From Octopus vulgaris (Eukaryota): a stretch of 64,000 bases of DNA. The stretch spans positions 40,362,001 to 40,426,000 of the forward strand of contig OX597823.1 of NCBI GenBank assembly GCA_951406725.2. The letters run 5' to 3'. Positions 3,337-57,440 of this stretch are shown here, in pieces. The stretch's first letter is position 1, and the number at the start of each line of letters is the position of its first letter. The position numbers and the translations under genes were made by a program. The notes beneath the pieces were generated by a model. The model ran no database searches, was not told the origin of the DNA, and worked only from the letters and a program-made list of their open reading frames with translations.

Positions 3337-4339
3337 GGTGGTGGTGGTGGTGGGAGTACTAGTAGTAGTGGTGGTGGTGGTAGTAGTATTAGCAGTAGTA
3401 TTAGTAGTGGTGGTGGTAGTAGTATTAGTAGTAGTAGTAGTAGTAACAGCAGCAGCAGTAGTAGTAACAATAACAACTAGCAATAAGTACCAGCAGCTTT
3501 TCGAATAAAAGCCACAATTACAACTTATAATAACAAAAAGTAAACACCACAAAGCAAAAGAAAACAAAAAGGAATTATAAACAAATATACACGCATATAC
3601 ACATTCATAACATACACACACACAAACATACATACATACATACAGACAGACAGACAGGCATACATACATACACACACATACATACATACATACACACATA
3701 CATGCATACATACATACATACATACACATACATAAATACTTACATACACACATACATACAGACAGACATACATACACACACATACATACATACTTACATA
3801 CACACATACATACATACTTACATACACACATACATACATACATACATACATGCATACATACATACATACACACATACATACATACATACACACGTACATA
3901 CATACTTACATGCATACGTACATACATACATACATACATACATACATACATACATACATACATACATACATACATACACATACATACATGCATACATACA
4001 TACACATACATACATACATACATACATACATACATACATACATACATGCATACATGCATACATACACTCACGCAGAATCACTAGAGAAACAAGAACAAGC
4101 ATCAAGAAAATGTAATAGATGTGATTGACGACAACAATGATAATGATAGTGATGCTGATGAGAGTGGTGGTGGTGGTGGTGATGATGGTGGTGGTGGTGG
4201 TGGTGGTGGTAGTGGTTGTGATGATGACGTGATGATGATAATGATGATAGATAACGATGATGGTGGTGGTGATGATGATGATGTTGCTGATGACGATGAG
4301 GATGGATATGACGGTGGTGGTGGTTGTGGTGTATGGTGG

Positions 4340-10368: not shown

Positions 10369-11647
10369 ATAAAGATTCCTCGGCGAAGAGAATATTTTGT
10401 TTTATGTTTTAGAAGGTTGTTGTATTTGAGTTCTGAAGAAAGTAAAGAAACGGAGTGGACACAATTTCAAATCCCACCTGAACTGATTTACCATTTCGTC
10501 ACCTCCGGGAAATCAATAAACGAAGTTATTAGTAAAAGAAGGATCAAGTTAATTATTTGTAAATACTTCTCATTTTACAAAAAAGCGATATTAGCCTGCT
10601 TACAACTAAATGATCGATATTCGATGTCATTATGATATCTGAACCTCTGCTTATTGAAGAGCGTGGGAATAAAACAGCTATTTTTGGTGGACGAAGTATT
10701 TTCCAAACATAATCTTTTGCAGACGTCTAAATTGAAGAAAGAATTGATAGGAAGAATGATAGAGCAAAAAACATGAAACTTCGTGCTAACTTTTGTAAAC
10801 AGAGAGGTGATGAAGGCAGTGGTGACGGATAAGAAAAATAAATAGAAATATATGTTGAAAGAGAAGTGTGCGGGAAAATGCTGGAGATGTCTGTTGATAG
10901 AGAAAGGCAGGAGTTGGAAAACTGTGTAATATGGACTGTTGCTAGGTACATCGTAAAATGATAAAATAATATTTCCAATAAAATATGAGGCTAAATTCTA
11001 AATATTGTTTTAATATAATACGAAATATAACTGTACACGTGTTGGCTAAAGTAAGTAAAACTTTATTACATTCAAGATGGAATGAGGATAGGGGTGTTAT
11101 GTCAGATACGTCCAAAAATAAAATGAAAAAATTTTCCCCCAAAATATTATGTCTGCCATTGAGCGCGTGATTTAAAGTATCGAGCTGATACGATCTTTAA
11201 ATCTTTGGAAAACCTACTTGGCGCTTTTTGTCCCTCTTCTTTACGTTTTGAGTTCAAATGCACCTCATGTCGACTTTATCTTTGATCATTTCGTGGTCGA
11301 TGGAAAAGAGTAACAATGAAGTAGATTAATGATATAGACTAACTCCTTCCCGTCAAAACTGCTGTCCTTTCTGCTTTAATTAGAAACCATTGATGATGTA
11401 GTTGAATATATTAACTACATAACGGATAAGTACGTAATCATTTACTGATGTATATTTATAGATAAAAATGTCCTATTTTTCAGTGTATTGCTTTTTTTGC
11501 CAATGGCGTACAACATTATTGTTAATACGTTCCGGTAAATTCAATTGTGAATATGCTAATCACAGTTGTATTTTGTGCATGGAGAACAACTTACCATTTC
11601 AAGAACAATGTATGTTCAAAATACACTCGATTCATTAGAGTAAAGGA

Positions 11648-11694
11648 CTTTGAGACACCGGTGTTTCGACGTGGTTGTGTCTCTTCAGTCAAAG
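11648..11694 (-). ncRNA. Type I hammerhead ribozyme motif, core intact
   Basis: Minus strand: CTTTGA-CTGAAGA-GAC-acaaccac-GTC-GAAA-CACCGGTG-TC-TCAAAG. Stem I is 6 bp, stem II is 3 bp, stem III is palindromic, and the cleavage triplet is GUC. Confidence 0.85.
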
Positions 11695-11891
11695 CTCACA
11701 TCGGCTCGAAGAAACTAAACAATAAATATAGCTCTTGTTTATTGAACTCAGAAAACAAATTAGTTGCTGAAGCGTGTTGATACGTGCCAAAGCAATAACA
11801 AATTGTCAAGCAATCAATCTGCTTGAACGTATTAAGAATAAATATATTCTCCATTGTTTGAGTTTCGCTGGTCTCCGTACACGTGATAATT

Positions 11892-11956
<65 letters not shown>

Positions 11957-25700: not shown

Positions 25701-26249
25701 TGATTGCACGCAAAGAGACACGGAAGCCATCTTCACGAGGAATGTGCTGAAATTGTCTCTTTCAGTATAAGAAACCTCAAACGCTACCCATATCAGTAAA
25801 CCATTATCAACCCCAACCTTTATTCATGAGTAACACTCATTTAAAGCTCATATATTTGAGGTGATAACACATTACTCTCATGTTTACCACCTAGGGTCTC
25901 TTCTGTCGAGAGTACGCCATTAACGTGGCTAGGACCGCATTTCGAGGCCAGAGGGCCCTTCAGCACGAAGCAATTCTTTTCTCCCTTTCTTCTTCTTTCT
26001 AAATTTCGAAGCCAGAGAGCACTTCAGTACCAGACAATTTCTTTTCCCCCTTTCCTCATCTTGCTAAAATTGTCTCTTTGAGCGTAAGGAAACCCAAACG
26101 CTACCCATATAAATAAACCATATTCATCCCCAGCTTTTATTCATGAGTAACACTTATTTAAAGCTCAAACATTTCAGGTGATATACCCTCCAGCCTTCAT
26201 CAGGTGTCTTGGAGAAATTTCGAACTTGGGTTCTCATTCCTAACATAAC

Positions 26250-26320
<71 letters not shown>

Positions 26321-27299
26321 GGAATGAAAACTGATACAAATAGCGGCAAAACACGAGCAAAACAAAAAACTGTTCTCAGTATTTAAGGAAGCTGACAAAT
26401 ACAAACAAGAAATCATACCACCTAATAAATATGAAGAAGAAGAAGAGGAAAATGAAGAAACAACAAAAGCTATAAAACAAATGAAATCCAAACTAAAAAC
26501 AGAACAGCAACGAACCATGATAAAACGATGGCAAGAAAAGCCCCTTCATGGTAAATACTGCACTAAACTAAACGCAAAAGAAATAGACAAAGAAAAATCC
26601 CAGCAATGGTTGAGAAGCTCAGGACTCAAAGCAGAAACAGAGGGATTTTTAATTGCAGCACAAGACCAAAGCCTCCCCACCAGAAATTACCAAAAACATG
26701 TAATGAAAAGAAATATAACAAGTAACTGCAGAATATGTGGAGATGGACAAGAAACAATAAATCATATTAGCTCTGGCTGCCCAGTCCTAGCTAAGAAGGA
26801 ATATATTCACAGACATGACAGAGTTGGAACCTACATACACTGGAAGCTATGCCAACATTATGGAATAACAACAGAAAAAAGATGGTATAGGCACACACCC
26901 GAAAAGGTCACAGAAAACGAGAAAGCAAACATACTCTGGGATATGCCGATACACACAGATAGAGAAATTAAGGCCAACAGACCAGATATAGTTGTCAGAG
27001 ATCATGAAGGAAAAAAATGCTTTCTAATTGATGTATCAATACCGGCAGATGACAACGTGTCTCTAAAAGAAATGGAGAAACTTTCAAAATACAAAGACCT
27101 GGAAATAGAGGTAACCAGAATATGGAATGTAAAAACAGAAACAATTCCTATCATAGTAGGTGCATTAGGCATGATAAAAAATATTCAGACAAATACATAA
27201 CAAAAACACCAAGACTTACAAACACATATAACATACAGAAAATTGCACTACTAGGCACTGCACACATCCTACGCAGAACACTTTCCATACAATAACCAC
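26321..27299 (+). pseudogene. R4/Dong LINE C-terminal fragment (CCHC zinc knuckle plus restriction-like endonuclease)
   Basis: ORF 26481-27200: WQEKPLHG, AAQDQ, CRICGDGQETINHISSGC, RHD, RPDIVV, IDVSIP, EKLSKYKDL, PIIVGALG. Confidence 0.93.
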
Positions 27300-27335
27300 C
27301 TTAGGATTGAGAGGCCAGGTTCGAAATTTCCCCAA

Positions 27336-27381
27336 GACACCTGATGAATGCTGGTGGGTGTATCAGCCGAAACGTTGTGTT
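27336..27381 (+). ncRNA. Minimal type I hammerhead motif (Penelope type)
   Basis: GACAC-CTGATGA-AT-GCTG-gtgggtgtat-CAGC-C-GAAA-CG-TT-GTGTT. Confidence 0.65.
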
Positions 27382-28099
27382 AACAAGAAACAAGATGAGG
27401 ACAAATAGCCGTCAAATGTAAATAATCTAAATAATGTACATAATTCATCATCTCTTAAATATAGAACTGTGATAACATATTGTTCTCATGTTTGGGGCTC
27501 TCTATAACCTGGACTCTCTTCTGTCGAGAGTACGCCATTAACGTGGCTAGGATCGCATTTCGAGGCCAGAAATCACTTCAGCACGAAACAATTTTTTTCT
27601 CCCTTTCTTCTTTCTAAATGCCACATCCATGTTGTGTTAAGAGAAAAAGAAAAAGGAAGCCACAGCTGGATTAAGAGAAGCCGAAAAGGTGTCTATGTCT
27701 ACTCCCGACTACATAGACACCTGAAACACTTAACGAAAGCATGGCATAAGCTTACAACCCATATCAGCTCGCGTGTAACTTCAGGATGTTATGTCCATTA
27801 CACTTCATTAAGGATGCATTTTTTTGAGACATTAGCGAAGGGATATTGTTTAATTATTAATATTTTGTCACTTATTAAGAACTTGACTCTAGTCTTGTAC
27901 ACCTGCGCAAACGCTATTTCTAAAATGACATGAAGCCAAAATATTTATCGTTTAAAGTAAGATTAATCCAACTGCAGTTATATAGTGTCTCTTCTTTCTA
28001 GATATGTTCTTTAAGTGGGTTCACAGAAGAATGTAGTAGCTTCAAATACCGCAAGGAATTATGACTCCTATGTTATAGAACTGCTCTAAGAGAGCAGGG

Positions 28100-28214: not shown

Positions 28215-28700
28215 AATCCTTAATTTGTTGATCCTGTTTAGCCAATATAATTCTCATTGCAGTGTGGGCATGTGAAGCAGTTGGTAAAATATTTGTTTTG
28301 CAAATAGCGTTTGAATTTGATCTTGAATTCCTTCCCATTCTTGAAGCTTTCGGTTGCTCCCCGTTTCACTATTTCATACGTCCCACAACACAAGTCTCTA
28401 CAGCTTGTACATGCATAGTTTCTTCTTCCTATGTGAAATTCACCTTTGTTAGGAGTATTCTAAGACATGGTGGTTGTCTCCGATTGTTGATGATTTTCGA
28501 TTTTTAAATAATTTGTCGGAAATTTGATGATTGGTATAAAATTGGAAGGAGGGTCGAACCGAATATAAGATATTACAATTTCTAGAATCATGGGTGACTA
28601 CAAATAAAATATTCATAGCTGTGTTTTTGTTTTCACTCACATTATGAATATTTCTCTGTAAGACAGAAACTGGAATTTATTTTAATTTGGTTTTGGCATG
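28215..28700 (-). pseudogene. Penelope-like element remnant (linker plus GIY-YIG N-terminus)
   Basis: ILFVVTHDSRN, IINNRRQPPCLRILLTK, CRDLCCGTYEIV..SFKNGKEFKIK..FTCPHCNENYIG*TG. Confidence 0.75.
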
Positions 28701-41459: not shown

Positions 41460-42597
41460 TGGATGTTAAAACTTGTCTCAAAACATGAAAACAAGAAAGC
41501 ATCATACTCAGTAACAAAACAGGCAAAGGAATATCTAAGTAAATTCCGAATACAACAAATTTCGGAATTAGAGATAGACATACAAGAAACAGGTACAGAA
41601 AAAGCTAAGCGCATGAAAACCCGTGCTAAATCTGCGGCCTTAGATATTCTGAATGATAAATGGCAAGAAAAACCTCTCTATGGCAAATACCCAAAGAGAG
41701 CAAATAATGCAGATGTTGACAAGGCCCTGACTCATCAATGGCTAATGGCCTCTGGCTTAAAATCTGAAACAGAGGGGTTTATCATAGCAGCTCAAGATCA
41801 ATGCCTACCAACAAGAAACTACCAGGCCAACATATTAAAGATCAGAAGCAGTCCAACGTGTCGTGTATGCAAGCAACAAAATGAAACCATTGACCATGTG
41901 GTCTCCAAGTGCAGTCTTCTAGCGCCTACAGAGTATCTCAACAGGCACGATAGAGCTGCCCAATATATTCACTGGGTAATCTGTAAAAACCTGGATTTGC
42001 CCCATGAAAAAAACTGGTGGGAACACAAACCACCCCCAGTGCTTGAAAATGACCACATCTCACTCCTCTGGAACTTCACCATTCAAACTGACAGAAAGAT
42101 AGATGCAAATAGGCCAGACATTATATTGAAAGAAACTTCAAACAAAGAACATGCCTCCTCATTGATATGACTGTCCCAATCGATATAAACGTATCTGTCA
42201 AGACCTACCAAAAACTGAGCAAATATAAAGATCTTGAAATAGAAATCAGCAAAATGTGGAAGCTGAAGACTAAAACAATACCTGTTGTCATAGGTGCCCT
42301 GGGAATGATAGCAAAAGGGGCTGATAGCTACTTAACTCAGATACCAGGAAACCCAAAAATAGCAGAAATTCAAAAGATAGTGCTCATGGGAACTGCTCAT
42401 ATCCTACGCAAAATACTTTCTATGTAATCTCAAGGTTTAAAACAAACATAATTTTCAGTAGTACAACACCCCCACCCACCAAATATATGGCACACTAGGC
42501 ATAACAACAACATGAACTTCCAACCCTGTTGTCTCCTGAGGTCTCTGGGTGAGACTAGGAGCCAACTTGTACAAATATAAAGCAAAAGTCAAACATA

Positions 42598-45254: not shown

Positions 45255-49190
<3,936 letters not shown>

Positions 49191-56636: not shown

Positions 56637-56966
56637 TCAAAAGAACGCAATTTGTTACAGAACACTCACTGAGCTTGTTTATTGAACTGAACAATATTTC
56701 TACAGTGTTTCTGTTTTCTTCGGGTTCGTAATACGAAAAAAATAGGGAAAAAGGTAAAAATTCAAATATTCAACTGAACTATCATGCAGTCCTTTAAAGA
56801 CAAAAAGATGTCATCAAGTTTTACATCTGGTTAAAACGAAAAAAGTAATGAAAAAGAAATAAGGAGAAAAGAATGTACTTAGTCAAATATTTATTTTGTT
56901 CACCCCTTTGGAGTGTCATGCTTGTAACTCGCAGTTATATTTTTCAACATAAAATTTCAGATAATA

Positions 56967-57440
<474 letters not shown>

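What the first reader, a model, noticed from the sequence alone, without database searches (positions are those of the whole stretch)
11540..11893. Solitary intact-looking type I hammerhead ribozyme in otherwise unclassified DNA
Seen on the minus strand at 11694-11648: CUUUGA CUGAAGA GAC[ACAACCAC]GUC GAAA CACCGGUG UC^UCAAAG, with every core nucleotide canonical. Stem I can extend by GAG/CUC across a 7-nt bulge (UCCUUUA), the geometry used for loop 1-loop 2 contacts. Stem III is the 10-nt palindrome ACACCGGUGU, too tight to loop alone. Known: such palindromic stem III hammerheads work as dimers in Penelope-like elements and non-LTR retrozymes. No ORF or tandem partner is visible nearby. Inference: a solo pseudo-LTR or retrozyme of an uncharacterised family, or a retained self-cleaving RNA.
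Basis: partly seen in the sequence, partly recalled or inferred. Interest (0 to 1): 0.72.

Follow-up and report, generated by a model that had tools for sequence, protein, structure and literature searches.

The report
Fossil retrozyme copy with intact hammerhead
The predicted self-cutting RNA motif is really there, but it is one well-preserved copy of an old, decayed family of protein-free jumping repeats that were likely pasted by Penelope-type enzymes, and it has likely stayed intact by chance rather than because the animal uses it.

Summary
The hammerhead is real: Rfam Hammerhead_1, 37.4 bits, at 11694-11648 (-). It is neither solitary nor in unclassified DNA. It lies in a ~330-bp non-coding unit of an old family, estimated at over 1,000 motif-bearing copies about 17% diverged each. 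The unit forms head-to-tail tandems and folds as a predicted self-paired circle (consensus z = -6.0). Its insertions have the Penelope footprint: two fixed 3' ends ~42 nt apart, variable 5' truncation and back-to-back inverted pieces. The window copy is one such insertion, 11501-11808 (-) plus 11816-11897 (+). No ORF body adjoins any of 130 loci, so this is a non-LTR retrozyme, not a solo pseudo-LTR. Subfamilies show compensatory stem changes, so the masters were under selection. This copy is not: its outer helices have decayed, about 7 copies this intact are expected by chance, and the orthologue in a related species has two uncompensated stem III changes. Obligate dimer cleavage is not established. 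The scan already reported the same mechanism for younger families in this genome. Ordinary; new member of a known kind.

The parts
11648..11694 (-). Type I hammerhead motif (stem I 6 bp, plus a G-U pair at 11695/11647; helix II 3 bp with 8-nt loop; helix III 3 bp with CCGG tetraloop)
   Evidence: Rfam RF00163 37.4 bits; 2 differences from the family consensus in 47 nt
11653..11654 (-). Predicted cleavage site, after GUC (unit position 225)
   Evidence: Sequence and Rfam alignment; cleavage untested
11655..11664 (-). Stem III palindrome (10-nt subfamily); the orthologue in organism E differs at 11660 and 11662 without compensation
11501..11808 (-). Forward copy of the ~330-bp retrozyme unit, 5'-truncated at unit position 70, ending at the family's short 3' end (unit position 41); 80% identical to consensus
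   Evidence: L001 1462-1769
11816..11897 (+). Inverted 5'-truncated piece (unit positions 1-83), its 3' end pointing outward into a (TA)n run
   Evidence: (TA)n at 11895-11949
11857..11897 (+). ~42-nt 'tail' present at this end of the insertion only
   Evidence: 3' ends cluster at unit positions ~39-45 and ~80-84; coordinates derived
11807..11816 (.). Inversion junction; a contig of organism C has 29 more letters here and one of organism E has 50 letters between the two pieces, so this haplotype likely lost part of the junction
   Evidence: tables 4 and 5

Best explanation
The hammerhead sits in one old insertion of a ~330-bp protein-free repeat family (an animal non-LTR retrozyme) that was likely copied by Penelope-like reverse transcriptase/endonuclease and is now decayed, and this copy has likely kept its core by chance. 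Inferred life cycle: tandem units were transcribed, the hammerhead cut them to unit length, and the units were closed into self-paired circles. A Penelope-type enzyme then reverse-transcribed a circle, or an uncut multimer, from a fixed point about 150 nt downstream of the cut, often from both strands of the DNA break. That gives back-to-back pieces with a ~42-nt tail on one side. Shown: the motif, the family, the unit, the end geometry, the age and the neutral-rate divergence of the orthologue. Inferred: cleavage, circles, the enzyme. If transcribed today the motif would probably cut weakly, better as a dimer, with no product circle because it has no neighbouring hammerhead.
For: Unit: three head-to-tail units at L007 and two at L006, spacing about 325-330; consensus period 336, GC 39.6%. 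The consensus folds as a circle at -103.5 kcal/mol against -72.1 +/- 5.2 for 100 dinucleotide shuffles, 0 of 100 as low. Ends (199 segments in 130 non-redundant loci of 162): 159 of 199 3' ends fall in a quarter of the unit, with peaks at 25-48 (76) and 73-84 (45); 5' ends are spread; 28 of 30 adjacent inverted pairs point their 3' ends outward. In 14 of the 20 pairs that can be classed, one end has the tail and the other lacks it (p = 0.03). This matches the PLE description in 10.1101/2021.04.23.441226, section 6. Template: 120 pieces run across the cut site and 45 of 199 segments exceed 386 nt, so the template was not a linear cut-to-cut monomer. Past selection: compensatory swaps among 108 copies at stem I pair 1 (A-U 46, G-C 21; p = 3e-4), at another stem I pair (U-A 82, C-G 4) and at two adjacent outer-helix pairs (p = 3e-8 and 8e-7). 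Age: repeated unit positions within one insertion differ at 3487 of 12642 sites (68 loci), about 17% per copy; 14 of 55 in this copy. Chance survival: siblings average 9.2 mismatches in the motif; with about 1,250 motif-bearing copies (rough), about 6.6 are expected with at most 2. By a lenient test 5 of 111 unselected copies keep the core and three stems. This copy keeps 6 of 10 outer-helix pairs and 1 of 3 distal pairs. Orthologue in organism E (contigs of three studies spanning the stretch): 2-4 changes in 47 nt against 20-22 in the other 263 (p 0.55-1.0), two of them in stem III and uncompensated. The genome holds many PLEs: 6136 GIY-YIG candidates and 781-aa frames, with an RT-like region and GIY-YIG in L038 (domains read by eye).
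Against: The motif is far better kept than the rest of this copy (2 of 47 against 57 of 259; Poisson P about 0.005 per copy). The chance reading therefore depends on a rough copy estimate from a biased sample. Only 1 genome match exists for the 35-letter exact pattern, this one. The orthologue test has little power (about 3.5 changes expected), and 2 differences could not be placed because paralogues masked them. No autonomous partner was found: 20 PLE loci share no DNA with the unit. Three of five DNA queries covered the 3' part of the unit, which biases the sample towards pieces containing it. The compensatory swaps are few events shared by descent: unpaired subfamily markers are as strongly associated. 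3' flanks show no microsatellite excess (10 of 147 against 269 of 2236), although microsatellite targets are described for some PLEs.
Confidence: 0.82

Rival explanations
1. The unit is the pseudo-LTR of an old autonomous Penelope-like element. Its long ORF-bearing copies are rare or decayed, and this is a solo terminal repeat.
For: Penelope-type ends and inversions. Li et al. report Xenopus retrozymes homologous to PLE pLTRs (10.64898/2026.07.22.740005, parts 1-3 of 5 read). A GIY-YIG remnant lies 730 bp from one copy (L020).
Against: The unit's end runs seamlessly into the next unit. Shared flanks next to unit ends (5 pairs upstream, 7 downstream) look like common short repeats, not a PLE body (identity as SINEs recalled). 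PLE protein hits occur in 4 of 130 loci, none joined to the unit. Only 28 long frames from 20 GIY-YIG loci served as queries, so a distant PLE clade could be missed.
Confidence: 0.1
2. The copy was domesticated: selection in this lineage keeps the core as a working self-cleaving RNA in a host transcript or intron.
For: 2 of 47 differences in the motif against 22% in the rest; the insertion is old and orthologous in related species; stem I, helix II and the core show no listed change in organism E.
Against: Several such copies are expected by chance. The orthologue has two uncompensated stem III changes and a neutral-looking rate. The distal and outer helices have decayed. The lowest-energy fold of the 47-mer is a rival 7-bp helix (-9.2) rather than the hammerhead (-3.0 kcal/mol).
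Confidence: 0.05
3. The family was a satellite spread by recombination, or a SINE using LINE machinery, and the hammerhead is incidental.
For: Head-to-tail units exist.
Against: Copies are dispersed over most large contigs. Only 3 of 199 segments reach two units. Fixed twin 3' ends and outward-facing inversions fit PLE insertion. No poly(A) or simple-repeat tail is shared at 3' ends.
Confidence: 0.03

Closest known systems
Animal non-LTR retrozymes (Cervera and de la Pena 2020, PMC7229834: coral 220-240 bp, mussel 350-390 bp, axolotl 330/350 bp; passages and Results parts 1-2 of 3 read; supplement not readable)
   Same: Canonical type I hammerhead in a 150-450-bp, low-GC, ORF-less, tandem-forming unit with a predicted self-paired circle; short helix III with a tetraloop.
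   Different: Old and apparently extinct family (median 77% to consensus, no young copy in the sample); mostly 1-1.5 units per insertion; stem III occurs in 10-, 11- and 12-nt versions; expression and cleavage untested. 'Octopus' does not occur in that paper's main text.
Retrozyme monomers ('solo retrozymes') as PLE derivatives (Li, Clavereau and Pollet 2026, 10.64898/2026.07.22.740005; parts 1-3 of 5 read)
   Same: Dispersed monomer with one hammerhead in a PLE-rich genome; would count as an inactive monomer under their two-unit rule.
   Different: Their link to PLEs rests on co-occurrence and pLTR phylogeny in vertebrates. Here it rests on insertion geometry, and no homologous pLTR was found in 20 PLE loci.
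Penelope-like element insertions and pLTR hammerheads (Craig et al., 10.1101/2021.04.23.441226, passages and section 6; Cervera and de la Pena 2014, PMC4209133, passages)
   Same: 5' truncation, partial tandems, inverted 5'-truncated copy, 30-40-bp tail at one end; hammerhead with a small palindromic helix III.
   Different: No RT/GIY-YIG ORF; the unit itself is the whole element; the hammerhead is the canonical kind with 6-bp helix I and a real helix III, not the minimal kind.

Membership tests
Type I hammerhead (Rfam RF00163) | Core nucleotides, three helices, score above gathering threshold | tested here: met
   37.4 bits against 34
Type I hammerhead (Rfam RF00163) | Covariation of stems among homologues | tested here: met
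   Compensatory swaps in stem I and the outer helix between subfamilies; few independent events; none in helix II
Type I hammerhead (Rfam RF00163) | Self-cleavage | not testable with these tools
   Needs an in vitro assay
Animal non-LTR retrozyme | Hammerhead within a 150-450-bp unit that forms tandems | tested here: met
   Unit about 325-336 bp; 2-3 units at L006 and L007
Animal non-LTR retrozyme | No protein ORF; GC below 45-50% | tested here: met
   No conserved ORF body in 130 loci; GC 39.6%
Animal non-LTR retrozyme | Highly self-paired circular fold | tested here: met
   Consensus circle z = -6.0, 70% paired; a prediction on a consensus, not on this copy
Animal non-LTR retrozyme | Expressed as linear and circular RNA | not testable with these tools
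   Needs small-RNA or circRNA reads
Animal non-LTR retrozyme | Lack of PBS and PPT; long target-site duplication when present | tested here: inconclusive
   No duplication visible at this copy's two flanks (by eye); PBS and PPT not searched
Active retrozyme (Li et al. rule) | [quoted passage not shown] | tested here: not met
   One hammerhead at this locus; it is a monomer-type copy
Autonomous PLE pseudo-LTR | Repeat flanks an RT plus GIY-YIG ORF | tested here: not met
   0 of 130 loci joined to a PLE remnant; no DNA match in 20 PLE loci
PLE-mobilised insertion | Fixed 3' end, 30-40-bp tail at one end, 5' truncation, inverted 5'-truncated copy | tested here: met
Domesticated host ribozyme | Core conserved across species beyond the neutral rate | tested here: inconclusive
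   No excess conservation against organism E and two uncompensated stem III changes, but low power

The most novel reading that the evidence does not exclude
This copy has been co-opted: of more than 1,000 decayed copies it alone is held intact by selection in this lineage, as a self-cleaving switch whose rival 7-bp helix keeps the monomer off until two transcripts pair through the palindrome.
Probability: 0.05. Interest if true: 0.65.

Novelty: new member of a known kind. Interest (0 to 1): 0.25.

Why it matters
As a single locus it matters little: it is a fossil copy. The family adds two modest things. First, the Penelope-type footprint (twin 3' ends, one-sided tail, outward inversions) holds in an old family too, which supports PLE mobilisation of retrozymes, a route argued in print from co-occurrence and phylogeny. 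Second, its three natural stem III lengths (10, 11, 12 nt; two palindromic, one not) give a ready series for testing whether animal hammerheads need to dimerise. It also warns that an intact-looking solitary hammerhead in a repeat-rich genome is expected by chance.

Tried and rejected
(1) The idea that the ribozyme cut defines 5' ends of insertions: six 5' ends lay at unit 223-227, but breakpoint posteriors gave mass 3.6 there against a mean of 3.0, rank 97 of 336 (2.4 against 1.4, rank 69, in the 93 segments from 3' queries). Rejected. (2) A young subfamily: none in the sample (best long-piece identities about 82-86%), though searches score only 40 candidates and skip very common words. (3) A matching autonomous PLE: none in 20 GIY-YIG loci. 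(4) Microsatellite targeting: no excess. (6) Organism D's orthologous contig stops at 11475 and organisms B and C are nearly identical to this genome, so only organism E informed the conservation test. (7) The loose hammerhead pattern in the window is not above chance (21 matches; 5 of 100 shuffles reach this). (8) Plain folding does not recover the hammerhead (z -0.45 to -0.99), which is common for this motif (own knowledge) and was not counted either way. (9) The supplement of PMC7229834 could not be read and bioRxiv supplements are closed; they may list this family. Four paper searches showed no description of it in their listings; Repbase and Dfam were not searched. (10) Whether the copy lies in a host intron was not determined; 13 window ORFs gave only retroelement domains. 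(11) Rows dropped: duplicates (32 of 162 loci), the 21 loci L031-L051, and for pair counts 11 of 120 pieces with other stem III lengths plus the window copy.

Full report
Observation. Rfam Hammerhead_1 matches the whole model at 37.4 bits, above the gathering score of 34; the fast-filter scan of the whole window missed it. The cut site lies between 11654 and 11653. Helix I has 6 bp plus a G-U pair, helix II 3 bp with an A-C mismatch in the fourth place, and helix III can close as 3 bp with a CCGG tetraloop. Plain folding prefers a rival 7-bp helix that joins the helix II 5' strand to the helix III 3' strand and the cut site (-9.2 against -3.0 kcal/mol).

The family. The genome is 2.8 Gb; that it is a cephalopod is my recall from a repeat type and the wording of earlier notes, not a test. 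A search with the 354 bases gave 440 candidates, 40 scored, with long matches at 70-80%. Four more DNA searches and two pattern searches gave 130 non-redundant loci of 162, holding 199 segments. The unit is about 325-336 bp, 39.6% GC, and occurs head to tail: three units at L007, two at L006. Its consensus folds as a circle far better than shuffles (z = -6.0, 0 of 100). No ORF-bearing body adjoins it: PLE protein hits occur in 4 of 130 loci and none is joined to the unit. A broader core pattern has 79 matches in the genome against 0 for the control, 7 with the same palindrome. Of the 30 fetched, 21 match the unit beyond the motif and 12 keep all three stems by a lenient test.

How it was inserted. 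159 of 199 3' ends fall in a quarter of the unit, peaking at positions 25-48 and 73-84, about 42 nt apart, while 5' ends are spread. Of 30 adjacent inverted pairs, 28 point their 3' ends outward. In 14 of the 20 that can be classed, only one end has the extra ~42 nt (p = 0.03). This is the description of Penelope-like insertions in 10.1101/2021.04.23.441226, section 6. The window copy is a typical case: forward piece 11808-11501 ending at unit position 41, inverted piece 11816-11897 ending at 83. Contigs of related organisms have 29 or about 45 more letters at the junction, so the forward piece was probably a whole unit once. The genome has many PLEs, but the 20 loci examined share no DNA with the unit, so the partner is inferred, not identified. 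The cut site is unit position 225. 120 pieces run across it and 5' ends are not enriched there, so the template was likely a circle or an uncut multimer rather than a linear cut-to-cut monomer.

Was the ribozyme functional? In the master elements, probably yes. Stem III comes in three lengths among 120 pieces: 10 nt (25), 11 nt (52) and 12 nt (32). The 11-nt group swaps stem I pair 1 from A-U to G-C and two adjacent outer-helix pairs, each time keeping the pair. These are few events shared by descent, and unpaired markers travel with them. The 10-nt and inferred 12-nt forms are palindromes; the 11-nt form is not. PMC4209133 (passages) says short palindromic helix III motifs need a dimer. PMC7229834 (Results parts 1-2) reports monomer cleavage for coral and mussel retrozymes and calls two base pairs with a tetraloop typical of invertebrates. 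The helix here is at least that long, so monomer activity is possible and dimer help is likely.

Why is this copy intact? Positions repeated within one insertion differ at 27.6% of sites, about 17% per copy, and at 14 of 55 in this copy, so it is as old as its siblings. It has 2 differences in the 47-nt motif and 57 in the other 259. Siblings average 9.2, so P is about 0.005 per copy. With roughly 1,250 motif-bearing copies (12 exact pattern matches, divided by a column-frequency product of 0.0096), about 7 copies this intact are expected (3-34 over the range tried). Its distal and outer helices have decayed (1 of 3 and 6 of 10 pairs). The orthologue in organism E, spanned by contigs of three studies, differs by 2-4 of 47 in the motif and 20-22 of 263 outside it (p 0.55-1.0). 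The two placed changes, at 11660 and 11662, break a stem III pair and the palindrome without compensation. The test is weak and two differences could not be placed, so co-option is unlikely but not excluded.

Comparison and verdict. The family meets the testable features of animal non-LTR retrozymes and fails the defining feature of an autonomous pseudo-LTR. This locus would be an inactive monomer under the rule of 10.64898/2026.07.22.740005 (parts 1-3 of 5 read). Earlier notes of this scan describe the same footprint in young 360- and 485-nt families of this genome. I saw them after reaching my reading and did not test them; a look-up by this sequence and by place found nothing. Four paper searches listed no description of this family, but unread supplements and repeat databases may hold it. 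New member of a known kind; interest 0.25.

Noticed in passing
window 27298-27470 (+), 57312-57440 (+), 56966-57129 (-), 26168-26320 (-): A second, unrelated repeat with a minimal-hammerhead-like core, partly in inverted pairs within AAT runs and beside non-LTR RT fragments; likely the end of another Penelope-like family.
   Followed up: no
window 26328-27200, 41460-42170, 46777-48551 (+): Decayed non-LTR retroelement pieces with RVT_1 and zf-RVT hits among AAT microsatellites.
   Followed up: partly
window 28232-28435 (-): Remnant matching the GIY-YIG region of a PLE protein, 35% over 68 aa.
   Followed up: no
L038 and other loci: Many identical-length 781-aa open frames with a C-terminal GIY-YIG domain suggest a young PLE family; a hammerhead-like motif lies in L043.
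   Followed up: no
family alignment: A rival 7-bp helix that would hide the cut site is perfect in the 10- and 12-nt palindromic subfamilies and has a mismatch in the non-palindromic 11-nt one; it could be an off-state that dimer pairing relieves.
   Followed up: partly
L190, L191, L200, L203, L208: Other hammerhead cores with different flanks, probably separate older families.
   Followed up: no
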